The notes below the pieces were generated by a model. That model ran no database searches, was not told the origin of the DNA, and saw only the letters and a program-made list of their open reading frames with translations. A DNA stretch of 40,196 nucleotides from a virus, in the IMG/VR virus record IMGVR_UViG_3300029171_000021, positions 1-40,196 of that record; one strand, 5' to 3'. Positions 1 to 40,196 of the stretch are shown one piece after another (within the stretch, counting starts at the first letter, position 1; every line of letters starts with the position of its first letter). The translations under genes and the position numbers were made by a program.

Positions 1-99
1 ATATCAGCCAGATTGTCAATGTTCTAATTGCATCTGTCTGTCTGTATTCTATCTGTAAGTTGGAAGTCTGACTTTACCTGTAGTATCTCTTACATCTCT
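1..99. repeat. Terminal direct repeat, copy 1 (identical to 40098..40196); signature of a circular or terminally redundant genome closed by assembly
   Basis: Base-by-base comparison: the 99 nt atatcagccagattgtcaat...tacatctct at 1..99 are identical to the last 99 nt of the window. Confidence 0.95.
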
Positions 100-7656: not shown

Positions 7657-7965
7657 ATGCAAACTAAAAAACCAAAGCGTTGGAAGGGCAAACTAACTAA
7701 GGCATACAAGTATGCTGTATTAATTCCTGAGACAGACCGCTTAAAGTACCACCCTCAGAACCACCCTGCTTATAGAGAGCTGAGGGATTTTATATATGAG
7801 TATTACATAAAGTTTGATGTGGCCAATAAGCCTATCATGCTTACCACGCTTTGCTTGAAAATCAAGTCAAAGTGTTTAACTATGCCCGAATACAAAGATA
7901 GGGTAAGACCGTGGAATGAGATAATAGCAATAATTAACAGTACCCTTTCACCCAAACAAACATGA
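7657..7965 (+). CDS. Hypothetical basic protein (102 aa), first gene of the rightward arm
   Basis: ORF ends in an ATGA overlap with the next gene (7962). No motif recognised. Confidence 0.5.
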   Translation: MQTKKPKRWKGKLTKAYKYAVLIPETDRLKYHPQNHPAYRELRDFIYEYYIKFDVANKPIMLTTLCLKIKSKCLTMPEYKDRVRPWNEIIAIINSTLSPKQT

Positions 7966-8801
7966 AACAAATGCCTTATGCCCCATGGTATTTTGGAGAT
8001 TTCCTTAATTCCCTGAGTGTCCAGATGATGAATGCAGAAGAAGTGGGCTGTTATTGTCTGCTGTTATTTAATCTGTATCAGAATGGTGGAAAACTGCCAA
8101 ATAAGCCTGAAGCACTCAAAGTTTTATGCCGTGGCATAGCCGTGGCATTGCCAGTGCTTGCCAACTTCTATGTTGATGGTGAATTTTTACGACACAAGCG
8201 AGTAGACAAAGTTATGCGAGATTTCTCAGAAATGTCTGCCAGACAAAGTGCGAATGCTAAAAAACGTTGGATTAAAGATACAAAAGAACCCATGCCACGG
8301 CATGAAAGTGGCATAGCCATGGCATCCGAACGGCAATACCAATCAAAATCAAAATTAAAATCAAAAGAAAGCATTCAAGGTTTAGTGAATAAACCATGTT
8401 TAGTTAGCGAAGGCTCAGAAACTTACAACACAGCAAAGCAGTTATGCGAAACAGAAGGGATCAGATTTGGTATTCCTTACCAGTATTTCAAGAAATTCGA
8501 GATGGAATACGATAGTAAGAATATCCTTGAAGGAGTCAAGTCTGCTGCTTCTTACATGCTCTCCAAGGGAAATGACTCACTCTCCTATGCGAATGTTCAG
8601 CGCTTCATGAGAGATTTCCCATTCAAGGCAAGAGACACAGTCAAAGATGATCCTCAGAAATCAGCAGCTTACGAGGCAGCTATGAGCAGAGAAGAACACC
8701 TCAAGACCAAGGAGCTGCAGAAGGCTATAAGACTTAAGAAACTTAACCAAAACGAACATGAAAACATTACAAGCACATCACAAGAGCCAGTTGGAAATTG
8801 A
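7962..8801 (+). CDS. Replication initiation/organiser protein with N-terminal DUF1376-like domain (279 aa)
   Basis: N-terminus PWYFGDFLNSLSVQMMNAEEVGCYCLLLFNLYQNGGKLPN fits the DUF1376 pattern seen in phage replication proteins. Sits immediately upstream of the DnaB-like helicase and contains iteron-like repeats. Confidence 0.6.
   Translation: MKQMPYAPWYFGDFLNSLSVQMMNAEEVGCYCLLLFNLYQNGGKLPNKPEALKVLCRGIAVALPVLANFYVDGEFLRHKRVDKVMRDFSEMSARQSANAKKRWIKDTKEPMPRHESGIAMASERQYQSKSKLKSKESIQGLVNKPCLVSEGSETYNTAKQLCETEGIRFGIPYQYFKKFEMEYDSKNILEGVKSAASYMLSKGNDSLSYANVQRFMRDFPFKARDTVKDDPQKSAAYEAAMSREEHLKTKELQKAIRLKKLNQNEHENITSTSQEPVGN
8126..8370. repeat. Iteron-like repeats plus A/T-rich tract inside the initiator gene; putative origin of replication
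   Basis: Tandem 11-mers GCCGTGGCATA/GCCGTGGCATT at 8128..8149. Palindromic 12-mer ATGCCGTGGCAT at 8126..8137 and its reverse complement ATGCCACGGCAT at 8292..8303. 18-mer GTGGCATAGCCGTGGCAT (8131..8148) recurs as GTGGCATAGCCATGGCAT (8308..8325). An A-rich tract with repeated AAAATC follows at 8336..8370. Confidence 0.55.
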
Positions 8802-10008
8802 GATACTCAGATCTATCTCATTCACTCCACGCTTTTTAGAGATGTTTGACCTCAAGGAAGACGACTTTGGAACACCTGTAAATATCAAGATCTTCAAACG
8901 CATGGTAGATTTGAGAATGGAGAACAAGGAAATCAATCTGATGAACCTCTACGCACATGGCAAGCTCACTGTGGATGATTTGCGTGGGGTTATTTCGACC
9001 GATTCCATGTTTACCGACAAAATCTACTACCAGTTGCCAAAGGACTTTATAAACGCATGTCAAATACTTCGTGAAGATAACAACAAGCGAAAGATTTTGA
9101 GATATGTTGAGTGGGCTGACAACAGTGACGACTTCTTACAACAGATGAGAGATATAGAGAATGGTGGCATTGGAAGTCTGAACGAAACATTTGAGAAGCA
9201 GCTGGAAGCCTATCTAGAACGTAAGAAGAAACTCAGGGAGCAACAAATAGCTGGCAATCCTATTGGCCTCTTTACCAGCTGGGTAAAGTTCAATGAGCTA
9301 GTGGCAGCACAGCCTGGAGAGATGGTAGTAATAGGCGCTAGGCCTAGTATTGGAAAGACTTCTATGGCTCTTGACATTGCAATAGAGGCAGCAGCATTTG
9401 GCCAGAAGGTTCTGTTTGTATCCATGGAAATGCCAGAAGACCAAATCTTTGACAAGATATTTGCTTATCTGAATGATGAGCCTATCTGGAAATACAAGTA
9501 TGGCAAGGCAAGTGAAGCGGATATCAGAAGAGAATTTGAAGCCATTAAGAAGAATTTTATCTTGCGTTATCGACCAAAACTTACTACTGCACAGCTCTCA
9601 AGGCTGATATGTTTGGAATCTAATCTAGATGTTGTGGTAGTTGACTATTTGCAGCTATTAAGGGATACTCCTACTAGAGGAGAGAATGAGAATAACAGAC
9701 TTGGCAAAATATCCAGTAATCTCAAAATGATGGCAGGAGAACACAGAGTTGTAATGATTGTTCCTGCTCAGCTTAATCGTGAGAATGAGAAGGCAAAGAG
9801 AGAGCCAATGCTGTCAGATCTGAGAGACTCAGGCTGCATAGAACAAGACGCTGACATTGTTGGATTATTACACAGGAGCGACAGGGCAGCTACAGATGCC
9901 AAGCTGATCATAGCAAAGAACCGTAACGGTAAAACAGGTGTATTGCACTTTTGGTTTGCCCCAGAAGTCAGCAAATTCAAGGAAGCTAACGAAATTATCA
10001 ATGACTGA
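8758..10008 (+). CDS. dnaB: DnaB-like replicative DNA helicase (416 aa)
   Basis: N-terminal DnaB-like LEIEILRSI... segment. Walker A GARPSIGKTS, Walker B/DnaB motif VVVVDYLQLL, and C-terminal LSDLRDSGCIEQDADIVGLLHR...KNRNG, all typical of the DnaB family. Confidence 0.85.
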   Translation: MKTLQAHHKSQLEIEILRSISFTPRFLEMFDLKEDDFGTPVNIKIFKRMVDLRMENKEINLMNLYAHGKLTVDDLRGVISTDSMFTDKIYYQLPKDFINACQILREDNNKRKILRYVEWADNSDDFLQQMRDIENGGIGSLNETFEKQLEAYLERKKKLREQQIAGNPIGLFTSWVKFNELVAAQPGEMVVIGARPSIGKTSMALDIAIEAAAFGQKVLFVSMEMPEDQIFDKIFAYLNDEPIWKYKYGKASEADIRREFEAIKKNFILRYRPKLTTAQLSRLICLESNLDVVVVDYLQLLRDTPTRGENENNRLGKISSNLKMMAGEHRVVMIVPAQLNRENEKAKREPMLSDLRDSGCIEQDADIVGLLHRSDRAATDAKLIIAKNRNGKTGVLHFWFAPEVSKFKEANEIIND

Positions 10009-10278: not shown

Positions 10279-10503
10279 ATGCAAAAGGTCAAAGTAAAAA
10301 CAGTTCAAGTTCCCTTCGGCTTGGAAGACACTATTGCCAACAGAGTGAATGAAGAGCTGGACTCTTTGGGAATAACCAGAGAGACACTAGTCAGTATAGA
10401 TATTAAGCCAGTGCCTATGTATCAGATATCAGCAGGGAACGGAGATATTAAGATCAATAATGGAGCAGTTGCTACTATCATTTACCTAGTGGACAAATGG
10501 TAG
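10279..10503 (+). CDS. Hypothetical protein (74 aa)
   Basis: ORF in the operon. No motif recognised. Confidence 0.45.
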   Translation: MQKVKVKTVQVPFGLEDTIANRVNEELDSLGITRETLVSIDIKPVPMYQISAGNGDIKINNGAVATIIYLVDKW

Positions 10504-10736
10504 AGACTGTTAGCACCCCAGAAGAAGAGTGCTACTATGAGCTAGCCATCTTGTACGCCTCTGATATAGGAGCTGAGATAGATTATACATTGCTGGAATA
10601 TGCAGTGGTTACAGCAGCCATCAGACATAGGCTTAGAGGAGTAAATGCACAGTTCATAGAAGACAGTATTGAGGATTTGTGTCAGGCCGAAAACATTACA
10701 ATACATTTAATTATGGCACGTGACAAAATTAGTTGA
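10497..10736 (+). CDS. Hypothetical acidic protein (79 aa)
   Basis: ATG 10497 overlaps the previous stop (10501..10503). No motif recognised. Confidence 0.45.
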   Translation: MVETVSTPEEECYYELAILYASDIGAEIDYTLLEYAVVTAAIRHRLRGVNAQFIEDSIEDLCQAENITIHLIMARDKIS

Positions 10737-10761
10737 CATTCGCAAACAGATCAGTAATAAT
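10733..10761 (+). promoter_or_regulatory. Sigma70-like promoter P1 (TTGACA-N17-AATAAT) in front of the nucleotide cassette
   Basis: TTGACA at 10733..10738, exact 17-nt spacer, AATAAT at 10756..10761, 30 nt upstream of ATG 10791. A CACGTGACA motif lies just upstream (10717..10725). Confidence 0.6.
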
Positions 10762-10790
10762 TTATTTATAATCTCATAACAATCAGAACA

Positions 10791-11519
10791 ATGAGTAAAC
10801 GAAAGAAGCCAGTATTTAATCTCCTCATGCCTGCAGAAGTAGAGCTAGAGGGATTGAAGTTTGTTATCCGACCAGAGACAAGCGACTGGAAGAGTATCGC
10901 AGAAGTTGTAGGCCAGAGGGCTTACGAGAGACAATATTTCAAGGTAGAAGAAGGTGAGACTTGGCTTGACCTTGGAACATACGTTGGAGCATTCTCAGTA
11001 TGGGCAGCTAGCAAAGGGGCAAAGGTTATTGCCTTCGAGCCAGACAAATCTGCTTATGAGATGGCACAACAGAATATCATGTTCAACGAATTGTCAGACA
11101 GAGTAGAGCTGCTAAATGTAGCTGTAGACTTGGAGGCTGGCATTAAACCATTCTATGTCAACAGCATGAATGGTAATCTGTGGAGAAATAGCTTGATCCA
11201 TAAATGGGGCGGTGGCACAGAGACTCAAATCACAGCTGTAGATTGGAGAGCTTGGCTTAAAGATGGCATCTGTATTAAGATGGATATTGAAGGCTCAGAA
11301 GTTCCATTGCTTGAGAATCTTCCTGAAGATGTAAAGATCAAGAAGATGGTATTCGAGTATTCCTTTGACATTTGGCCAAGTATTGCCAAGTACAATGAAA
11401 TTATCGAGAAGCTTAAGACAAGATTCAGAGTAGTCAAGTATAAGAAAATCAAACCAGAAGTAACTGAATGGCCTCAGAGCTGGCAGCCAGCCAACGCCAT
11501 GATCTTCTGCTATAATTAA
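10791..11519 (+). CDS. SAM-dependent methyltransferase, FkbM-like (242 aa)
   Basis: Motif-I-like WLDLGTYVGAFSVWAASKGAKVIAFEPDKSAYEMAQQNI... and the later IKMDIEGSE resemble the FkbM (Methyltransf_21) family. Substrate unknown. Confidence 0.65.
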   Translation: MSKRKKPVFNLLMPAEVELEGLKFVIRPETSDWKSIAEVVGQRAYERQYFKVEEGETWLDLGTYVGAFSVWAASKGAKVIAFEPDKSAYEMAQQNIMFNELSDRVELLNVAVDLEAGIKPFYVNSMNGNLWRNSLIHKWGGGTETQITAVDWRAWLKDGICIKMDIEGSEVPLLENLPEDVKIKKMVFEYSFDIWPSIAKYNEIIEKLKTRFRVVKYKKIKPEVTEWPQSWQPANAMIFCYN

Positions 11520-11553
11520 CAGACAAATCTTTTATATCATAACCCAAACAAAC

Positions 11554-12129
11554 ATGAGACTTGTCATACTAGAGGGCGCTGACGGTGTAGGAAAGAGCAC
11601 TGCAATAGCCAACCTCGATTATCTTTACAAAGATAATGAGAATTACAAATTCTTCCACGTACCAAAGCCTGCCAAAGATTTGTCTATGAAGACAAAGATG
11701 GTGGAGTATTGGAGAGATATGCTGACTAAGGCTTTCTCAGGATACGAGTTTACACATGACTCAGTATTCATTATGGACAGATCACCAGTAGGGAATCTGA
11801 TCTATGGCAAGAGAAAGAAAGACCAGCCCTATCTTACTTACGACCAGTTAGTAGATATATTCGACTGGCTGGCCGTGGGTTTTGATAGAGTTGACGTTAT
11901 TCTTCTGCATTGCAGCGATGAAGTATTGAAGCAGCGTGTAGATTCTAGAGGTGACGACTATGTCAAGTCAGATGAGCTTATTGGCATTCAGAATGATTAC
12001 TTGGAAGTCTGGAAGAAGCTGGACAGGAATTACAAGATCAGAGGCGATATCTACTTCTGGAAAGCACCTAGAGACGGCACAGAGCACAGAATTGTAGATT
12101 ATATCCAAGATAAATTAGCAAGGAATTAA
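11554..12129 (+). CDS. Thymidylate kinase-like dNMP kinase (191 aa)
   Basis: P-loop ILEGADGVGKST (compare Tmk E-G-x-D-G-x-G-K-[ST]-T) and DRSPVGNLIYG (compare Tmk DR-x-x-x-S-x-x-AYQ). Confidence 0.7.
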   Translation: MRLVILEGADGVGKSTAIANLDYLYKDNENYKFFHVPKPAKDLSMKTKMVEYWRDMLTKAFSGYEFTHDSVFIMDRSPVGNLIYGKRKKDQPYLTYDQLVDIFDWLAVGFDRVDVILLHCSDEVLKQRVDSRGDDYVKSDELIGIQNDYLEVWKKLDRNYKIRGDIYFWKAPRDGTEHRIVDYIQDKLARN

Positions 12130-12149
12130 TAATTTAACCAAACAAACAA

Positions 12150-13109
12150 ATGCTATATTCGTACACAGATGCAGAGAGGATCAAGACTATCTATCCACAC
12201 CTAATAAGAGACTTGCTGACTTACGGCAAGGAAGCTGCAAAGCCTAGAGGCAAGGCGACCAAAGAGCAATACAATGTTGGCTTTGTTCTTACTGATGCTC
12301 ATAATAGCGTAGTCACTAGCCCACTACGCAAATTCAACTATGCTTACGCTGCTATTGAGATGGTAGGATTATTGCAGCATGGCATGAAGAATGTAGAGCC
12401 ATATACTTACTACAATTCAGTAATGAAGAGCTTCCTGAACACTGATACTAATCAGTGGGATGGTAGCTATGCTACACGCTTAACAATGTACGAGCAGCTA
12501 AGAGAGATGTACAAGATATTGAAAGCTGATCCAGATAGCAGACGTGCTGTAATCGGCATCTACAATCCACACCATGACTTCCATGAATACGAGTCAAAAG
12601 ATATCTGTTGCACTCTTAACCTGATCTTCAGGCTCAGGAACGGCAAATTGAGCCTGACTTGTACTATGAGAAGCAATGACATTCTTCTTGGCCTTCCATA
12701 CGACCTGACTCAATTCACATTCTTACAATCTGTCCTTGCTAAGTGGCTTGGAGTGGAGATGGGAGAATATTACCACTTCGCTGCAAACTTCCACGCTTAT
12801 GATACAGACTATGAGAAACTCTGGAATATTGCTAACGAAAATGGAAAGTACGAAGATCCAGAGACGTTCAGCAGCATGCCTGACTGGGATATCGCTGACA
12901 TTGATGAGACTTTCGCTGATGTACAGAGATTCTTTGCATGGGAGAAGTTCTTAAGAGACATGGACAAGCTTTCAGTTGAAGAATTATCCAAAGCCTTTAC
13001 TAACAATAATCTTGAGGCGATCAAATCTAAAGTGCTTACAGACCTCTTATTAAATACGATTATTCCATACATCGCAAAGAAAAAGCAGAAGTCTGCGAAA
13101 ATAGTTTGA
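12150..13109 (+). CDS. Thymidylate-synthase-fold pyrimidine C5 enzyme, dCMP hydroxymethylase-like (319 aa)
   Basis: LKADPDSRRAVIGIYNP ... DICCTLNLIFRLRNGKLSLTCTMRSNDILLGLPYDLTQF aligns with E. coli ThyA (NDPDSRR ... [36 protein letters not shown]). It also aligns with T4 gp42 as I recall it (NPDSRRG ... MCTNTVQY ... MRSNDVVFGFRNDYAWQ). Nucleophile Cys154 is at 12609..12611. Asp185 (12702..12704) occupies the position of ThyA Asn177 / T4 CH Asp179. Confidence 0.7.
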   Translation: MLYSYTDAERIKTIYPHLIRDLLTYGKEAAKPRGKATKEQYNVGFVLTDAHNSVVTSPLRKFNYAYAAIEMVGLLQHGMKNVEPYTYYNSVMKSFLNTDTNQWDGSYATRLTMYEQLREMYKILKADPDSRRAVIGIYNPHHDFHEYESKDICCTLNLIFRLRNGKLSLTCTMRSNDILLGLPYDLTQFTFLQSVLAKWLGVEMGEYYHFAANFHAYDTDYEKLWNIANENGKYEDPETFSSMPDWDIADIDETFADVQRFFAWEKFLRDMDKLSVEELSKAFTNNNLEAIKSKVLTDLLLNTIIPYIAKKKQKSAKIV

Positions 13110-13134
13110 CTTTGATTTTGGAACGTGAAATAAT
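13106..13134 (+). promoter_or_regulatory. Sigma70-like promoter P2 (TTGACT-N17-AATAAT); member of the conserved 30-bp element class
   Basis: tttgactttgattttggaacgtgaaataat at 13105..13134, 22 nt upstream of ATG 13157. Confidence 0.65.
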
Positions 13135-13156
13135 TAACTCACAATAAGACAGACAG

Positions 13157-13720
13157 ATGGATAAAATACAAAGACAATTCAAAGTTAAGAGAGGAGATAG
13201 AACAATTCTATACCCATTCACAACTTACAGCGTTATCTTCCAAGGCAACATGCACAGCCAGATAGCCAATGCGCTGTATAAATATCTTGCTGCTGTTATG
13301 ACAGAAGGCTGTCCAGCAGAAGATAGGAGATCAGTAACGAGTGAGCCAGTATTGATGATTCCTACTAAGCAAGTCGCTGGAAGTGATCTATCACTAATAA
13401 CACAGAAGACTGACTATAAGGGTAATGGCAAATATCAGCATGATCTAGTGCAGAGTTATTTTCTGGATAATGACGCACACGCCTTAGCTATTGAAGTACC
13501 AGTATGGGATAACGAGCTACTCGGCCATATCGATCTTATCAGACTATTTCCAGACAAGATTCAGGTCTGTGACTTCAAGCCTAAAGCGCACAAAGAATCC
13601 AAGGCAGCCAGCCAAGTACATAGATATATTGATCTTCTGAGCCGTGCTACTTGGCTACCACGCCACCTATTCGAGGGTGTATATTTCGATGAACAATACG
13701 CATATTATATAACCAAATAA
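13157..13720 (+). CDS. PD-(D/E)XK nuclease, RecB/Cas4/lambda-Exo-like (187 aa)
   Basis: Motifs GHIDLIRL ... VCDFKPK ... ASQVHRY give D ... D-x-K ... Q-x-x-x-Y, the RecB-family nuclease signature. Directly upstream of the annealase-like gene. Confidence 0.55.
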   Translation: MDKIQRQFKVKRGDRTILYPFTTYSVIFQGNMHSQIANALYKYLAAVMTEGCPAEDRRSVTSEPVLMIPTKQVAGSDLSLITQKTDYKGNGKYQHDLVQSYFLDNDAHALAIEVPVWDNELLGHIDLIRLFPDKIQVCDFKPKAHKESKAASQVHRYIDLLSRATWLPRHLFEGVYFDEQYAYYITK

Positions 13721-13724
13721 TTAT

Positions 13725-14360
13725 ATGGCACAAGGTAAAGCAAGTCCAGTCAAAGCGCTGGCAAATGGCTACTTCTCCAAAGATGTTGTAGCAAAATTCG
13801 ACTCAGTTCCCTTTGAAGACAAACTCACAATCTTGCAGATCACTCCTGCAACATACATCAAGGAACGTGAGATTGGAGGCAAGACTGTAAAATTCATTGA
13901 ACACACTTATGCTAAGAAGTGCATGAATTTTATATTCAACTTCCTAGTAGATAGTGAAGTAGTGAGAGAAGACTGGAATGAATATCAAGAAGAATATTAC
14001 GATTATAAAGACAAGAACTGCAAGAAGTCTCAGGCAGGCAAAATCATTCCTATTAAGAAGGAAAGAACAGTGACAGAGGCAAGTGTAGTAATGAAATTCA
14101 CAATGACATATCCTGATGGATCTATCCACTCAAGAACAGTCAGGGCATCACATAAAGGCTATCCAAATCCAGCACTGACAAAATCCAACATCATGGAAGC
14201 TGCACACTCCAAGACATGGAGCAAGCTCGCAGCCACTTATGGAGTCGGTTCAGAACTGGATAAGGTTCAGGAAGACAAGGCTTACGAACAGCCAGAGGAA
14301 GTAGAAACAGTAGTAGAAGAAGCAACTGAAAAGTCATTTGCACCTAAAGTAGGATTTTAA
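13725..14360 (+). CDS. Rad52/Sak-like single-strand annealing protein (211 aa)
   Basis: YIKEREIGGKTVKFIEHTYAKKCMNFIFNF..., then VVMKFTMTYPDGSIHSRTVRASH ... EAAHSKTWSKLAATYGVGSEL, fit the Rad52-family pattern (R-x-x-g-g-x-x-l-x-Y-i ... N-x-x-F-g ... dG ... A-x-x-x-A-x-K-x-a-x-x-x-f-G-x-G). Acidic C-terminal tail. Confidence 0.5.
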   Translation: MAQGKASPVKALANGYFSKDVVAKFDSVPFEDKLTILQITPATYIKEREIGGKTVKFIEHTYAKKCMNFIFNFLVDSEVVREDWNEYQEEYYDYKDKNCKKSQAGKIIPIKKERTVTEASVVMKFTMTYPDGSIHSRTVRASHKGYPNPALTKSNIMEAAHSKTWSKLAATYGVGSELDKVQEDKAYEQPEEVETVVEEATEKSFAPKVGF

Positions 14361-14383
14361 TATATCATTAATAACAAACGAAC

Positions 14384-15142
14384 ATGTCAAATATACCTTA
14401 CAAAGATTATCTAGAAGCTGCAACAGTAGCAGAGACTAATCTTGTTCCATTTCAGCAACAGGCCAGTAGCATCATTGTTAAAGATGAAGCTACTCAGAGA
14501 CAGGCAGTAGAAGCAGTGAGCCAAGTCAAAGCTAATCTGAAGAGATTGGAAGACTTGAGAACCTTCTTTACTAAGCCTCTTAATGACCAAGTTAAGGCAA
14601 TCAATAACAAATTCAAGTTATTGGCTGAGCCTCTTGAAGGTCTTGAAGTTAAACTCAAATCCACCATTACTAAATACATGGTAGAACAAGAGAGACTAGC
14701 AAGAGAAGAAGCTGACAGAGTGGCCAAGGTTCAGGCAGAGGAAGCAAGAAAAGCAAGAGAGGCTGCAGAAGCAGCTGAACGAGCAGCAGTAGAATTGCGA
14801 AGAAAAGCAGAAGAAGAGGCTAAGAGTGAAGCCCAAAAGCAGAAGCTACTTGACCAAGCTGATAAAGTTGAGGCAGCAGCCAAGGAAGTTGAACAGGCAA
14901 TTATTGCTAATCCTACAGAAGTTGTAGAAGCGCCAAGCAAGACAGTCCGTTCTGATAGTGGCAAAGCCACCCTCAAGAAGACATGGACTTGGAAAGTAAC
15001 AGATGAAGCCCTCTTTATGGCCTGCCACCCTGAACTATTCATTATCGATACTAAGGCAGTCAACAAACTTATTGCCAATGGTACTAGAGTCATGGACGGC
15101 TTGGAAATTTACGAGGAAGCAAATATTTCAGTAACAGCATGA
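14384..15142 (+). CDS. Hypothetical coiled-coil protein (252 aa), A/E/K-rich centre
   Basis: Long ORF in the recombination module with a central EEARKAREAAEAAERAAVELRRKAEEEAK stretch. No confident family assignment. Confidence 0.5.
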   Translation: MSNIPYKDYLEAATVAETNLVPFQQQASSIIVKDEATQRQAVEAVSQVKANLKRLEDLRTFFTKPLNDQVKAINNKFKLLAEPLEGLEVKLKSTITKYMVEQERLAREEADRVAKVQAEEARKAREAAEAAERAAVELRRKAEEEAKSEAQKQKLLDQADKVEAAAKEVEQAIIANPTEVVEAPSKTVRSDSGKATLKKTWTWKVTDEALFMACHPELFIIDTKAVNKLIANGTRVMDGLEIYEEANISVTA

Positions 15143-16144: not shown

Positions 16145-16534
16145 ATGGCAAATAAAAATCAAGAGGGTAAAACATTCAAAATAGTAGGCAAGGATATTTC
16201 AGACGGTTATCATACATTTGATGAACTGTATGAACATAGAATAGCTTTGTTTATTGCTTTGTGCAGGTCAATAACTGCTATGCAGGATTTTCATGAGTTG
16301 ACCACAGGAGGCAAGAAAAAACCTATTGTTTGGAGATCAGAGAAGCATTCTGATGGTACATCTATGAAAGGTTGGTTTATAATGGGAATTTTAAAAAGCC
16401 ATGGAGAACAAATAACTTATCATTTACCTATGGACAGATGGCTTGCTTGTGGGTTTGCAGAAACACTTGATCAAGCCCCTGAGTTTGATGGGCATACTTC
16501 AGAAGATGTAGTTAGAAGATTAAATCTTTTATAA
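16145..16534 (+). CDS. Hypothetical phage protein (129 aa), resembles the family I know as WDGH-domain proteins
   Basis: DGYHTFDELYEHRIALF ... WRSEKHSDG ... WFIMGI ... QITYHLP ... FDGHTSEDV. Function unknown and the family name is from memory only. Confidence 0.5.
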   Translation: MANKNQEGKTFKIVGKDISDGYHTFDELYEHRIALFIALCRSITAMQDFHELTTGGKKKPIVWRSEKHSDGTSMKGWFIMGILKSHGEQITYHLPMDRWLACGFAETLDQAPEFDGHTSEDVVRRLNLL

Positions 16535-19996: not shown

Positions 19997-20605
19997 ATGA
20001 GAGAACAAATAAAAACCTATCACGAATTCAAAGCTACACCAGAAGGACAAAAACTATACAAATCACCACGCTGGGGAAAGTTTAAACCAGCTCACGTTAA
20101 TCTTCACCAATGGGAGAATCTCTTAGGTGCTGACGTGAACAATATGAAGCACATGCTATTAACAGCAATATTAACAGGTCTGGCCATTCCTGAAGTCGGA
20201 GTGACTAAGGCAGAAGGGGAAGTTTTGTTATGGACAGCTATTACTCATGACTGGGCAGAAGCCGTAGTAGGTGATATTCCATTATATGATAAGACTGCAT
20301 CAGCTGAGCAAAGAGAACACGCTATTCTTAGACAGATGCTAGAGGCCAGATTGCCTAAGCAGGCTAATGGAATTATGGACGTGATTGGCGATACTCAGAG
20401 CAAGCTTGGAAAGATATTCCAAGGCATTGAGTTTGTTGGCTATGTCAGGACTCAACGCAAAGCAGGAGAGATAGCACACATGGTTAGAGATGAAGAATTA
20501 CAGGATAATCTGATAGCAATGTCGAAGACCAACATAGAACGCAACACCAAGATGGCCTATGCCAGATTACCAGTTGTGACTGTTGAGGGCTTGTTTAAGA
20601 GTTAG
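19997..20605 (+). CDS. HD-domain phosphohydrolase, YfbR-like 5'-deoxynucleotidase family (202 aa)
   Basis: NNMKHMLLTA ... LLWTAITHDWAEAVVGDIP gives H ... HD-x-x-E-x-x-x-GD-x-P as in the HD_3/YfbR family. Confidence 0.6.
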   Translation: MREQIKTYHEFKATPEGQKLYKSPRWGKFKPAHVNLHQWENLLGADVNNMKHMLLTAILTGLAIPEVGVTKAEGEVLLWTAITHDWAEAVVGDIPLYDKTASAEQREHAILRQMLEARLPKQANGIMDVIGDTQSKLGKIFQGIEFVGYVRTQRKAGEIAHMVRDEELQDNLIAMSKTNIERNTKMAYARLPVVTVEGLFKS

Positions 20606-40097: not shown

Positions 40098-40196
40098 ATA
40101 TCAGCCAGATTGTCAATGTTCTAATTGCATCTGTCTGTCTGTATTCTATCTGTAAGTTGGAAGTCTGACTTTACCTGTAGTATCTCTTACATCTCT
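40098..40196. repeat. Terminal direct repeat, copy 2 (identical to 1..99)
   Basis: See copy 1. It duplicates the 3' end of gene 49..426. Confidence 0.95.

What the first reader, a model, noticed from the sequence alone, without database searches (positions are those of the whole stretch)
12606..12704. Specificity residues of the ThyA homologue match T4 dCMP hydroxymethylase, not thymidylate synthase
The segment DICCTLNLIFRLRNGKLSLTCTMRSNDILLGLPYDLTQF aligns with E. coli ThyA ...[37 protein letters not shown]. It also aligns with T4 gp42 as I recall it, ...MCTNTVQYLIRDKKINAVVNMRSNDVVFGFRNDYAWQ.
- The nucleophilic Cys is conserved (Cys154, 12609..12611).
- The motif is MRSND as in T4 CH, versus QRSCD in ThyA.
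- The residue aligned with ThyA Asn177 is Asp185 (GAC, 12702..12704).

Asn177 hydrogen-bonds uracil. It is Asp179 in T4 CH, and an Asn-to-Asp change is known to switch TS toward dCMP. The alignment was done by eye from remembered reference sequences.
Basis: partly seen in the sequence, partly recalled or inferred. Interest (0 to 1): 0.65.

Follow-up and report, generated by a model that had tools for sequence, protein, structure and literature searches.

The report
Phage dCMP hydroxymethylase gene, not ThyA
A 40-kb phage genome encodes a thymidylate-synthase-fold enzyme whose active-site residues all match enzymes that make 5-hydroxymethyl-dCMP, so the phage probably puts 5-hydroxymethylcytosine into its DNA, and a neighbouring methyltransferase may modify that base further.

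Summary
ORF 12150..13109 (319 aa) has the thymidylate synthase (TS) fold. Formal alignments place Cys154 on ThyA Cys146, MRSND on ThyA QRSCD, and Asp185 on ThyA Asn177.

The XP12 TS homologue (from a 5mC phage) and the RB69 5-hydroxy-dCMP synthase also carry Asp at that position. The decisive residues are:
- Asp151 at ThyA Leu143 (the water-activating Asp145 of T4 dCH).
- Asp177 retained at ThyA Asp169 (it is Asn in 5hodCMP synthases).
- Thr155 and Met173 (cytosine-type).
- Ser175 and Arg131 (deoxyribose-type, unlike MilA).

All match T4 gp42.

Overall, the protein is not a gp42 orthologue. It is closest to MilA (Foldseek TM 0.77) and to M6-type hydroxymethylases.

It sits directly after a dNMP-kinase-like gene and an FkbM-family methyltransferase. 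The genome is complete and circular (40,097 bp). No DNA polymerase, DHFR, dCTPase or glycosyltransferase was detected in it.

Most likely function: dCMP to 5hm-dCMP. This is a new member of a known kind.

The more novel lead is the methyltransferase. Its close relatives nearly always sit next to TET/JBP dioxygenases or TS-like hydroxymethylases, which suggests an undescribed modification of 5-hydroxymethylpyrimidines.

The parts
12150..13109 (+). TS-fold enzyme, 319 aa; predicted folate-dependent dCMP 5-hydroxymethylase (5hm-dCMP synthase)
   Evidence: - Pfam PF00303 scores 76.5 bits, and the protein is below all ThyA equivalog cutoffs.
- PDB best hit is MilA at 5e-26, against 5e-14 for the best true TS.
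- AlphaFold model has pLDDT 93.
- Foldseek places MilA first at TM 0.77 over about 318 columns.
12600..12602 (+). Asp151, aligned with ThyA Leu143 / T4 dCH Asp145 / MilA Asp (hydroxymethylase marker)
   Evidence: - Alignment; the residue is invariant in 45 homologues.
- Its role is described in PMC6400193 (D145N is inactive; it positions the substrate water) and in PMC13326640.
12609..12614 (+). Cys154 (catalytic nucleophile, = ThyA C146) and Thr155 (= ThyA H147; Thr in the cytosine enzymes T4, RB69 and MilA, but Pro in XP12)
   Evidence: - Alignments.
- Position 147 is the second most discriminating position in MetaGPA (PMC8670742).
12666..12680 (+). M173-R174-S175-N176-D177, aligned with ThyA Q165-R166-S167-C168-D169
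   Evidence: - Alignment.
- Ser175 is the deoxyribose-type residue (MilA has Ala176).
- Asp177 is retained, so this is not a D169N 5hodCMP synthase.
12702..12704 (+). Asp185, aligned with ThyA Asn177 / T4 dCH Asp179 (cytosine recognition)
   Evidence: - Alignments.
- Conserved in 43 of 45 homologues.
12540..12545 (+). Arg131-Arg132 (= ThyA R126'-R127', phosphate clamp from the partner subunit); Arg131 is Lys133 in the ribo-specific MilA
   Evidence: Alignments; role of the residue from PMC5175136.
11554..12129 (+). P-loop dNMP/thymidylate-kinase-like protein, 191 aa; proposed 5hm-dCMP kinase
   Evidence: - Pfam dNK 29.7 bits, TIGR00041 32.8 bits (below cutoff), phrog_761.
- PDB best hit is SPbeta YorR at 5e-9.
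- It lies immediately upstream of the TS homologue in the window and in every held relative locus of the 50-59%-identity clade.
10791..11519 (+). FkbM-family (Methyltransf_21) SAM methyltransferase, 242 aa; proposed tailoring enzyme acting on 5-hydroxymethylcytosine (chemistry not established)
   Evidence: - TIGR01444 61.7 bits (cutoff 37.7) and PF05050 34 bits.
- Relatives are linked to TET/JBP or to TS-like hydroxymethylases.
19997..20605 (+). HD-domain (HD_3) phosphohydrolase, 202 aa; the only other candidate nucleotide-pool enzyme. Its role is uncertain.
   Evidence: Pfam HD_3 34.2 bits; no PHROG family and no useful PDB match.

Best explanation
ORF 12150..13109 most likely encodes a folate-dependent deoxycytidylate 5-hydroxymethylase.

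**Proposed enzyme mechanism**
- Cys154 attacks C6 of dCMP.
- Asp185 binds and protonates the cytosine N3/N4 face.
- Glu70 activates methylene-tetrahydrofolate, and one carbon is transferred to C5.
- No hydride then comes from folate. Instead a water molecule, held by Asp151 and the Ser106/Tyr107 region, adds to the exocyclic methylene. This gives 5-hydroxymethyl-dCMP and regenerates THF.

**Proposed downstream pathway**
- The adjacent kinase-like protein (11554..12129) would make the diphosphate.
- Host NDP kinase would make the triphosphate.
- The host replisome would incorporate it, because no phage polymerase was detected and the phage has only a DnaB helicase and initiator.
- The FkbM-type methyltransferase (10791..11519) would then modify 5hmC further.

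**Shown versus inferred**
- Shown here: the fold, the residue identities, the gene order, and their conservation in relatives.
- Inferred: substrate, product, kinase specificity, incorporation into DNA, extent of replacement, and the methyltransferase reaction.
For: **1. Active-site signature (E. coli numbering)**

| ThyA position | Query residue |
|---|---|
| L143 | D151 |
| H147 | T155 |
| Q165 | M173 |
| S167 | S175 |
| C168 | N176 |
| D169 | D177 |
| N177 | D185 |
| R126 | R131 |

- This pattern is identical to T4 gp42 at all eight positions.
- The catalytic core E58, Y94, R166, H207 and Y209 is also present.

**2. Each rival class differs at a diagnostic site in the same alignment**
- ThyA: L143, H147, Q165, N177.
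- XP12: N143, P147, L165.
- RB69 gp48: N169.
- MilA: A167, K126.
- M6-, ViI- and Montesquieu-type dUMP hydroxymethylases: N147, N165, N177.

**3. The diagnostic rules come from experiments**
- N177D and D179N switch the base preference (cited in PMC8670742; PMC5175136).
- T4 D145N is inactive, and D145 holds the substrate water (PMC6400193).
- D169N marks 5hodCMP synthases, and nine diverse D169N homologues tested all made 5hoC (PMC13326640).
- MilA A176S/K133R reverses the ribose preference.

**4. Overall similarity is highest to proven or closely related hydroxymethylases**
- MilA: sequence E 5e-26 and Foldseek TM 0.77 including the C-terminal helical extension.
- The M6-type family phrog_5131 at 176 bits.

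**5. Gene context**
- A kinase-like gene is directly upstream in the window and in every held locus of the closest clade.
- A sister phage (TS 56% identical in the database search) has, in the methyltransferase slot, a 360-aa protein. Its only PDB sequence hits are T4 DNA beta-glucosyltransferase chains (E 0.006; pairwise 1e-6).
- No DHFR was found in the complete genome, which fits a reaction that regenerates THF.

**6. Family-wide conservation**
- D151 and D177 are invariant, and D185 is present in 43 of 45 homologues.
Against: - There is no biochemical or DNA-composition data.
- Overall similarity to T4 gp42 is low (42 bits).
- No dCTPase, dCMP deaminase or phage DNA polymerase was detected. 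Replacement of C may therefore be partial.
- The genome shows strong avoidance of C-containing restriction sites. CCGG is 0 against 14.8 expected, CGCG is 0 against 23.8, and GGWCC is 0 against 12.5. That is unexpected if cytosine modification gave full protection.
- Relatives of this enzyme sit beside 5-hmdU DNA kinase and amino acid:DNA transferase genes. Those systems have so far been characterised only for uracil-derived bases.
- The L143 rule is correlative. XP12 has Asn there, not a bulky hydrophobic residue.
Confidence: 0.75

Rival explanations
1. It is a dCMP C5-methyltransferase, as expected of the phage XP12 TS homologue. It would make 5-methyl-dCMP by hydride transfer from folate.
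For: - Asp at position 177 is shared with the XP12 TS homologue.
- Pairwise BLASTP is higher to XP12 (67 bits) than to gp42 (42 bits).
- TS N177D mutants methylate dCMP (cited).
Against: - The query has Asp at L143, Thr at H147 and Met at Q165. XP12 has Asn, Pro and Leu there.
- No Trp aligns with ThyA W80 or W83.
- XP12 has a DHFR gene two genes from its TS homologue, separated by a dCMP deaminase gene. This complete genome has no detectable DHFR.
- The nearest overall relatives are hydroxymethylases.
Confidence: 0.07
2. Despite Asp185, it is a dUMP hydroxymethylase. Alternatively its product is converted to 5hm-dUMP, which would feed a thymidine-type hypermodification.
For: - The best PHROG family is the M6-type dUMP hydroxymethylase family.
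- Close relatives are flanked by 5-hmdU DNA kinase, AADT and PLP-enzyme genes.
- The methyltransferase family also occurs with ParB/TET clusters, of the kind described as thymine dioxygenases (PMC13229309), and with an Asn-type TS homologue in L107.
Against: - All dUMP hydroxymethylase-type sequences aligned carry N147, N165 and N177, plus a one-residue insertion before N177. The query has T, M and D and no insertion.
- The Asn/Asp switch is experimentally validated in both directions.
- No dCMP deaminase is present in the genome.
Confidence: 0.08
3. It is a flavin- and O2-dependent 5-hydroxy-dCMP synthase, like RB69 gp48.
For: It shares D177, an acidic residue at 143, T147 and M165 with RB69 gp48.
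Against: - The diagnostic D169N substitution is absent. The query keeps Asp177, which is invariant in its family.
- No arabinose or other sugar biosynthesis genes or glycosyltransferases were detected in the genome.
Confidence: 0.03
4. It is a ribonucleotide (CMP) hydroxymethylase like MilA or BcmA, or an ordinary thymidylate synthase.
For: MilA is the closest solved structure. Pfam and PHROGs label the family 'thymidylate synthase'.
Against: - Ser175 and Arg131 are the deoxyribose-type residues, where MilA has Ala176 and Lys133.
- The setting is a phage replication module with a dNMP-kinase-like gene alongside.
- For ThyA, all equivalog cutoffs are missed by a wide margin, and positions N177, L143, H147 and Q165 all differ.
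Confidence: 0.03

Closest known systems
T4 gp42 deoxycytidylate hydroxymethylase (PDB 1B5E family; PMC6400193)
   Same: - The pattern is identical at the base-specificity, water-activation, folate and sugar-specificity positions: D143, T147, M165, S167, N168, D169, D177, R126.
- The catalytic Cys, Glu and Tyr are also shared.
- The predicted reaction is the same.
   Different: - Only 31% identity over a 64-residue core (42 bits).
- The two fall in different PHROG families.
- The query is 73 residues longer and has a MilA-like C-terminal helical extension.
- No gp56-type dCTPase, phage polymerase or alpha/beta-glucosyltransferase accompanies it.
MilA, CMP 5-hydroxymethylase of mildiomycin biosynthesis (PDB 5JNH/5B6D; PMC5175136)
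   Same: - It is the closest solved relative by sequence (E 5e-26) and by fold (TM 0.77 over about 318 columns, including the C-terminal extension).
- Asp is present at positions 143, 169 and 177.
   Different: - MilA has Ala176 and Lys133, which favour the ribonucleotide. The query has Ser175 and Arg131.
- MilA belongs to a Streptomyces antibiotic pathway, not a phage replication module.
M6/YuA-type and ViI-type phage dUMP hydroxymethylases (phrog_5131, phrog_3676; PMC8989533)
   Same: - phrog_5131 is the query's best profile match (176 bits).
- These enzymes share Asp at position 143 and have a similarly long C-terminal region.
- They also share neighbours in relatives: aGPT-Pplase/HMUDK_hel, P-loop DNA kinase and AADT genes.
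   Different: These enzymes carry N147, N165 and N177 and a one-residue insertion before N177 (uracil type). The query carries T, M and D with no insertion.
Asp177-type TS homologues of metagenomic phages with modified cytosine (MetaGPA, PMC8670742)
   Same: - The same Asn177-to-Asp and position-147 signature was found enriched on contigs with modified cytosine.
- The large, more distant Asp-type group retrieved here (L017-L094) co-occurs with dCMP deaminase and gp56-like pyrophosphatase genes, much as that study reports.
   Different: - The window's own clade (50-87% identity) lacks the deaminase and the dCTPase.
- It carries instead a variable tailoring slot: an FkbM methyltransferase, a beta-GT-like protein, or HMUDK/AADT/PLP genes.

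Membership tests
Folate-dependent dCMP 5-hydroxymethylase (functional class of T4 gp42) | TS fold with a catalytic Cys at ThyA C146, plus Glu58, Tyr94, Arg166, His207 and Tyr209 | tested here: met
   PF00303. Model pLDDT 93 with TS-fold matches. C154, E70, Y107, R174, H215 and Y217 are aligned.
Folate-dependent dCMP 5-hydroxymethylase (functional class of T4 gp42) | Asp at ThyA Asn177 (cytosine recognition) | tested here: met
   D185 in all alignments that span the site; present in 43 of 45 homologues.
Folate-dependent dCMP 5-hydroxymethylase (functional class of T4 gp42) | Acidic residue at ThyA Leu143 (T4 Asp145) that positions the substrate water | tested here: met
   D151 is invariant in the family. 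The rule comes from PMC6400193 and PMC13326640.
Folate-dependent dCMP 5-hydroxymethylase (functional class of T4 gp42) | Asp retained at ThyA Asp169 (folate-binding type, not flavin type) | tested here: met
   D177 is invariant.
Folate-dependent dCMP 5-hydroxymethylase (functional class of T4 gp42) | Deoxyribose-type Ser167 and Arg126' | tested here: met
   S175 and R131; rule from PMC5175136.
Folate-dependent dCMP 5-hydroxymethylase (functional class of T4 gp42) | Catalytic activity: dCMP + CH2-THF + H2O gives 5hm-dCMP + THF | not testable with these tools
   Needs an enzyme assay or nucleoside LC-MS.
T4 gp42 orthologous group (Tevenvirinae-type dCH, phrog_160) | Best profile or pairwise similarity to gp42-type sequences | tested here: not met
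   The query scores 119 bits to phrog_160 and 176 to phrog_5131, while gp42 scores 228 to phrog_160. BLASTP to gp42 is 42 bits over 64 residues.
T4-type 5hmC pathway (whole system) | Accompanying dCTPase/dUTPase (gp56), dNMP kinase (gp1), phage DNA polymerase and glucosyltransferases | tested here: not met
   Only a dNMP-kinase-like gene is present. No gp56-like protein, polymerase or GT was found in the complete genome.
Canonical thymidylate synthase ThyA | Score above the NCBIfam equivalog cutoffs; Asn177, Leu143, His147, Gln165, Trp80 and Trp83 | tested here: not met
   Best equivalog score is 75 bits against a cutoff of 327. The residues are D, D, T and M, with no Trp at 80/83.
5-hydroxy-dCMP synthase (RB69 gp48 / DLP3 gp80 type) | Asn at ThyA Asp169 (D169N) | tested here: not met
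   The query has D177. RB69 gp48 has N in the same alignment. Rule from PMC13326640.
dCMP methyltransferase (XP12 type) | XP12-like pattern at positions 143, 147 and 165, and a DHFR gene close by to recycle dihydrofolate | tested here: not met
   XP12 has N143, P147 and L165; the query has D, T and M. XP12 has DHFR two genes from its TS homologue; none was detected here.
CMP hydroxymethylase (MilA/BcmA) | Ala at ThyA Ser167 and Lys at ThyA Arg126' (ribose preference) | tested here: not met
   The query has S175 and R131. The fold is nonetheless closest to MilA.
dUMP hydroxymethylase (SPO1/M6/ViI type) | Asn at position 177 (with N147 and N165 in the phage sequences aligned here) | tested here: not met
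   PAC6, SJ3, Montesquieu, P0044 and L107 all have N/N/N. The query has T/M/D.

The most novel reading that the evidence does not exclude
**Main reading.** The FkbM-family methyltransferase at 10791..11519 may be a new kind of DNA-tailoring enzyme that acts on the 5-hydroxymethyl group of pyrimidines in DNA. O-methylation is the simplest chemistry. Here it would give 5-methoxymethylcytosine, a base I could not find described in the literature held here.

**Evidence that does not exclude it**
- All 4 relatives looked up in Logan/ENA assemblies, and 8 of the 14 closest IMG/VR relatives, sit directly next to a TET/JBP dioxygenase, usually with a ParB gene.
- Other relatives sit next to TS-like hydroxymethylases, of both the Asp type and the Asn type.
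- The family therefore travels with two unrelated ways of making a 5-hydroxymethylpyrimidine.

**A linked possibility.** Sister phages pair the same Asp-type hydroxymethylase with 5-hmdU-DNA-kinase-like, amino acid:DNA transferase and PLP-enzyme genes. That would imply amino-acid-type hypermodification built on cytosine rather than thymine.
Probability: 0.3. Interest if true: 0.8.

Novelty: new member of a known kind. Interest (0 to 1): 0.5.

Why it matters
**Annotation.** The gene would routinely be labelled 'thymidylate synthase', as PHROGs, JGI and Pfam label its family. That label hides a phage that probably replaces cytosine with 5hmC.

**An unusual setting for pre-replicative 5hmC**
- The enzyme belongs to a clade separate from T4 gp42.
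- The phage is small, about 40 kb.
- No polymerase or dCTPase of its own was detected.
- This raises the question of whether a host replisome can be fed 5hm-dCTP, and how complete the substitution is.

**A testable lead.** The same gene string carries an interchangeable tailoring slot: a methyltransferase here, and a beta-GT-like protein or a DNA kinase plus amino acid:DNA transferase in sister phages. This gives a direct route to cytosine modifications not yet described.

**Practical relevance.** Such modifications matter for restriction and CRISPR evasion, for sequencing artefacts in viromes, and as sources of DNA-modifying enzymes.

Tried and rejected
- **DNA search.** A DNA-level search of cultured phages with 10500..14500 found nothing. 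No isolate relative is available.
- **Related-loci scans.** A scan with the single protein found no relatives. The 45-sequence alignment was too diverse to seed a scan. A 17-sequence alignment worked.
- **HMUDK_hel in the window.** I first suspected that the 279-aa protein at 7962..8801 was the HMUDK_hel/aGPT-Pplase gene seen in relatives. Pfam shows it is DUF1376, a replication-associated domain, and phmmer finds no HMUDK_hel homologue in the window.
- **Methyltransferase structure.** The model is confident (pLDDT 93), but Foldseek returned only generic class I methyltransferases at TM 0.4-0.5, with RNA m5U/m5C enzymes on top. It cannot tell O-methylation from base methylation.
- **HD-domain protein.** PDB sequence search gave nothing usable, so its role as a dCTP- or dNMP-hydrolysing enzyme stays a guess.
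- **Kinase.** It shows only weak similarity to the RB69 cluster kinase-like gene (27 bits).
- **Literature.** Searches for methoxymethyl-pyrimidines in DNA, a 5hmC DNA kinase, or FkbM linked with TET/JBP found no relevant paper.
- **Rejected readings.** I considered and rejected ThyA, XP12-type methylase, RB69-type hydroxylase, MilA-type ribonucleotide enzyme and dUMP hydroxymethylase, on the residue table.
Full report
**1. The observation**

ORF 12150..13109 on the + strand encodes 319 aa. Residues 151-190 read DICCTLNLIFRLRNGKLSLTCTMRSNDILLGLPYDLTQFT. Cys154 is TGC at 12609..12611 and Asp185 is GAC at 12702..12704.

I fetched the real reference sequences: T4 gp42, E. coli ThyA, the XP12 TS homologue, RB69 gp48, and M6-like, ViI-like and Glutamicibacter phage TS homologues.

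MAFFT, L-INS-i, BLASTP and HMMER against PDB chains agree wherever they span these sites. Cys154 aligns with ThyA C146 and gp42 C148. MRSND aligns with ThyA QRSCD and gp42 MRSND. Asp185 aligns with ThyA N177, gp42 D179 and MilA D186.

**2. What the protein is**

It has the thymidylate synthase fold. Pfam PF00303 scores 76.5 bits. The AlphaFold model has pLDDT 93 and pTM 0.92.

It is not a ThyA. Every NCBIfam ThyA equivalog is missed by a wide margin, the best being 75 bits against a cutoff of 327.

The nearest solved protein is MilA, the CMP 5-hydroxymethylase. Its sequence E-value is 5e-26, against 5e-14 for the best genuine TS. By fold, MilA chains fill the first seven places at TM 0.76-0.78 over about 318 columns. 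This includes the C-terminal helical extension that canonical TS lacks. TS entries follow at about 255 columns.

Among phage families the best profile is phrog_5131 at 176 bits. A control scan shows that phrog_5131 is the family of the M6/YuA-type dUMP hydroxymethylase (574 bits for the PAC6 protein). T4 gp42, E. coli ThyA and XP12 all belong to phrog_160. The protein therefore sits, overall, among hydroxymethylases of the MilA/M6 type and not in the gp42 lineage. BLASTP gives 42 bits to gp42, 55 to ThyA and 67 to XP12.

**3. Residue-level assignment**

Published work supplies tested rules.
- N177D in TS and D179N in T4 dCH switch the base preference (cited in PMC8670742; PMC5175136).
- In metagenomic phages, positions 177 and 147 are the two most discriminating positions between contigs with modified and unmodified cytosine.
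- T4 Asp145 (ThyA Leu143) holds the substrate water, and D145N is inactive (PMC6400193).
- Among the phage TS homologues aligned in that study, Leu143 correlates with methyl products and Asp/Glu with non-methyl products. D169N marks the flavin-dependent 5-hydroxy-dCMP synthases (PMC13326640).
- MilA Ala176 and Lys133 set its ribose preference, where deoxy enzymes have Ser and Arg.

| Enzyme | 143 | 147 | 165 | 167 | 168 | 169 | 177 | 126 |
|---|---|---|---|---|---|---|---|---|
| Query | D151 | T155 | M173 | S175 | N176 | D177 | D185 | R131 |
| T4 gp42 | D | T | M | S | N | D | D | R |
| E. coli ThyA | L | H | Q | S | C | D | N | R |
| XP12 | N | P | L | S | S | D | D | R |
| RB69 gp48 | E | T | M | S | Q | N | D | R |
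| MilA | D | T | M | A | N | D | D | K |
| dUMP hydroxymethylases (PAC6, SJ3, Montesquieu) | D | N | N/I | S | N/Q | D | N | R |

The table is from my 28-sequence alignment. The query matches T4 gp42 at every position. It differs from each other class at that class's diagnostic site.

D151 and D177 are invariant across 45 homologues, and D185 is present in 43. The two exceptions, P0044 and P0045, carry Asn at 177; in P0044, the one also placed in the alignment, positions 147 and 165 are Asn as well. So the positions co-vary. No Trp aligns with ThyA W80 or W83.

Asp185 alone would also fit a 5mC or a 5hoC enzyme.

**4. Genome and context**

The window has an exact 99-nt terminal repeat. It is therefore a circular assembly of a complete genome of 40,097 bp.

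The + strand module holds, in order:
- a DUF1376 initiator-like protein and a DnaB helicase;
- an FkbM-family methyltransferase at 10791..11519;
- a dNMP/thymidylate-kinase-like P-loop protein at 11554..12129;
- the TS-fold gene;
- recombination genes, namely an exonuclease, NinB and RusA.

Pfam and PHROG scans of the remaining ORFs found terminase, portal, capsid, amidase, a WDGH protein and one HD-domain protein. They found no DNA polymerase, DHFR, ThyX, dCMP deaminase, dUTPase/dCTPase or glycosyltransferase.

Relatives of the TS-fold protein at 50-59% identity lie on 38-48 kb phage contigs. They have the same kinase-TS pair and a variable set of neighbours:
- L011/L016: HMUDK_hel plus the same methyltransferase family.
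- L004: a 360-aa protein whose only PDB sequence hits are T4 DNA beta-glucosyltransferase chains (E 0.006; pairwise 1e-6).
- L008, L010 and L015: HMUDK_hel, a P-loop 5-hmdU-DNA-kinase-like protein and an amino acid:DNA transferase. L010 also has a PLP enzyme.

A larger, more distant Asp-type group (about 35% identity, hundreds of IMG/VR contigs) commonly carries dCMP deaminase and a gp56-like pyrophosphatase. That matches the associations reported by MetaGPA.

**5. Mechanism proposed**

dCMP is hydroxymethylated at C5 using methylene-THF, and THF is regenerated. The adjacent kinase makes the diphosphate and host NDP kinase makes the triphosphate. The host replisome incorporates 5hm-dC, and the methyltransferase then acts on it.

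Only the fold, the residues, the gene order and their conservation are shown. The rest is inference from the T4 paradigm (PMC8256090 introduction; PMC13326640).

Two observations argue that the modification is partial or not a complete shield.
- No dCTP-depleting enzyme and no phage polymerase were detected.
- The genome avoids several C-containing palindromes very strongly. CCGG is 0 against 14.8 expected under a Markov model, CGCG is 0 against 23.8, and GGWCC is 0 against 12.5. GAGCTC, ATGCAT and GGATCC are all 0. CpG occurs at about half the composition expectation.

**6. The methyltransferase lead**

The window's methyltransferase passes the FkbM family threshold, with TIGR01444 at 61.7 bits against a cutoff of 37.7. 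From general knowledge, characterised members of this family are O-methyltransferases.

Of its database relatives at 40-46% identity, all four contexts I looked up show the gene immediately after ParB_N and Tet_JBP genes. In IMG/VR, 8 of the 14 closest relatives directly abut a TET/JBP gene. One sits with HMUDK_hel and an Asn-type TS homologue, and one sits with HMUDK_hel. Two more distant relatives sit with Asp-type TS homologues.

ParB-associated phage TET/JBP enzymes were recently shown to be thymine dioxygenases that make 5hmU in DNA (PMC13229309). The text passages of that paper that I searched list kinases, amidotransferases and amino acid:DNA transferases as partners of the ParB-dependent subclass, and no methyltransferase of this kind.

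This methyltransferase family therefore accompanies two unrelated routes to a 5-hydroxymethylpyrimidine. That makes the hydroxymethyl group, or the base carrying it, its likely target.

The chemistry is not established. Foldseek gives only generic class I methyltransferases. I found no report of methoxymethyl pyrimidines in DNA.

**7. Comparison and novelty**

In function, the enzyme is best described as working like T4 dCH. By descent, it is a separate lineage nearer to MilA and the M6-type enzymes.

Asp177-type TS homologues in uncultured phages are already known to track cytosine modification (PMC8670742). The core finding is therefore a new member of a known kind.

Three things are less ordinary:
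- the minimal setting of one hydroxymethylase plus one kinase in a 40-kb phage with no polymerase of its own detected;
- the interchangeable tailoring slot;
- the pairing, in sister phages, of a cytosine-type hydroxymethylase with machinery so far characterised only for thymidine hypermodification (PMC8989533).

**8. Verdict**

| Reading | Confidence |
|---|---|
| dCMP 5-hydroxymethylase | about 0.75 |
| dUMP-directed hydroxymethylase | 0.08 |
| dCMP methylase | 0.07 |
| 5hodCMP synthase | 0.03 |
| ThyA or CMP enzyme | 0.03 |

Interest is 0.5. The call itself is solid but expected in kind. The methyltransferase and sister-cassette leads are what deserve follow-up.

Noticed in passing
window 10791..11519 (+); loci L096-L105, L107-L109, L120, L131: The FkbM-family methyltransferase next to the kinase and TS genes belongs to a family whose close relatives almost always sit beside a TET/JBP dioxygenase (usually with ParB) or beside a TS-like hydroxymethylase. 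This suggests an undescribed modification of 5-hydroxymethylpyrimidines in DNA.
   Followed up: partly
L008 2177..6930; L010 3526..8982; L015 2454..7477; L006, L007, L011: Sister phages pair the same Asp-type (cytosine-type) TS homologue with HMUDK_hel/aGPT-Pplase-1, a P-loop 5-hmdU-DNA-kinase-like protein, an amino acid:DNA transferase and a PLP enzyme. That machinery is so far known only for thymidine hypermodification. I did not check whether a second, Asn-type TS or a deaminase lies elsewhere on those contigs.
   Followed up: partly
L004 1203..2285: In a sister phage, the slot occupied by the methyltransferase in the window holds a 360-aa protein. Its only PDB sequence hits are T4 DNA beta-glucosyltransferase chains (E 0.006; pairwise 1e-6). 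This is weak but specific support for 5hmC as the base made by this clade.
   Followed up: yes
window 1..99 and 40098..40196: There is an exact 99-nt terminal direct repeat. The window is a circularly assembled, complete phage genome of 40,097 bp.
   Followed up: yes
whole window: Restriction sites are strongly avoided. CCGG is 0 (14.8 expected), CGCG 0 (23.8), GGWCC 0 (12.5), GAGCTC 0 (7.6), ATGCAT 0 (6.1), GGATCC 0 (4.8), and CCAGG 6 (28). CpG is about half the composition expectation. This is odd for a phage thought to shield its cytosines.
   Followed up: partly
window 19997..20605 (+): An HD_3-domain phosphohydrolase (34 bits) has no PHROG or PDB relative. It is the only other candidate nucleotide-pool enzyme, for example one that hydrolyses dCTP or dNMPs.
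   Followed up: partly
window 7962..10008 (+) and whole genome: The replication module has a DUF1376 initiator-like protein and a DnaB-type helicase, but no DNA polymerase was detected anywhere in the complete genome. The host polymerase would therefore have to accept the modified dNTP.
   Followed up: partly
L017-L094 (IMG/VR): About 500 IMG/VR stretches encode Asp-type 'PYD' TS homologues. The abundant group at about 35% identity usually has a dCMP deaminase and a T4 gp56-like pyrophosphatase a few genes upstream. The window's own clade lacks both.
   Followed up: partly
L131 6836..7801: A TS homologue near a distant relative of the methyltransferase has Asn at ThyA L143, with T147, M165 and D177. 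XP12 also has Asn at that position, so its product (methyl or hydroxymethyl) is unclear.
   Followed up: no
window 12606..12611: The catalytic Cys154 is preceded by a second Cys (Cys153, at ThyA Pro145). This Cys-Cys pair is nearly invariant in the close clade, while more distant relatives have Pro-Cys.
   Followed up: no
window 16145..16534 (+): A WDGH-domain protein (PF25311, 105 bits) of unknown function lies in the early/replication module.
   Followed up: no
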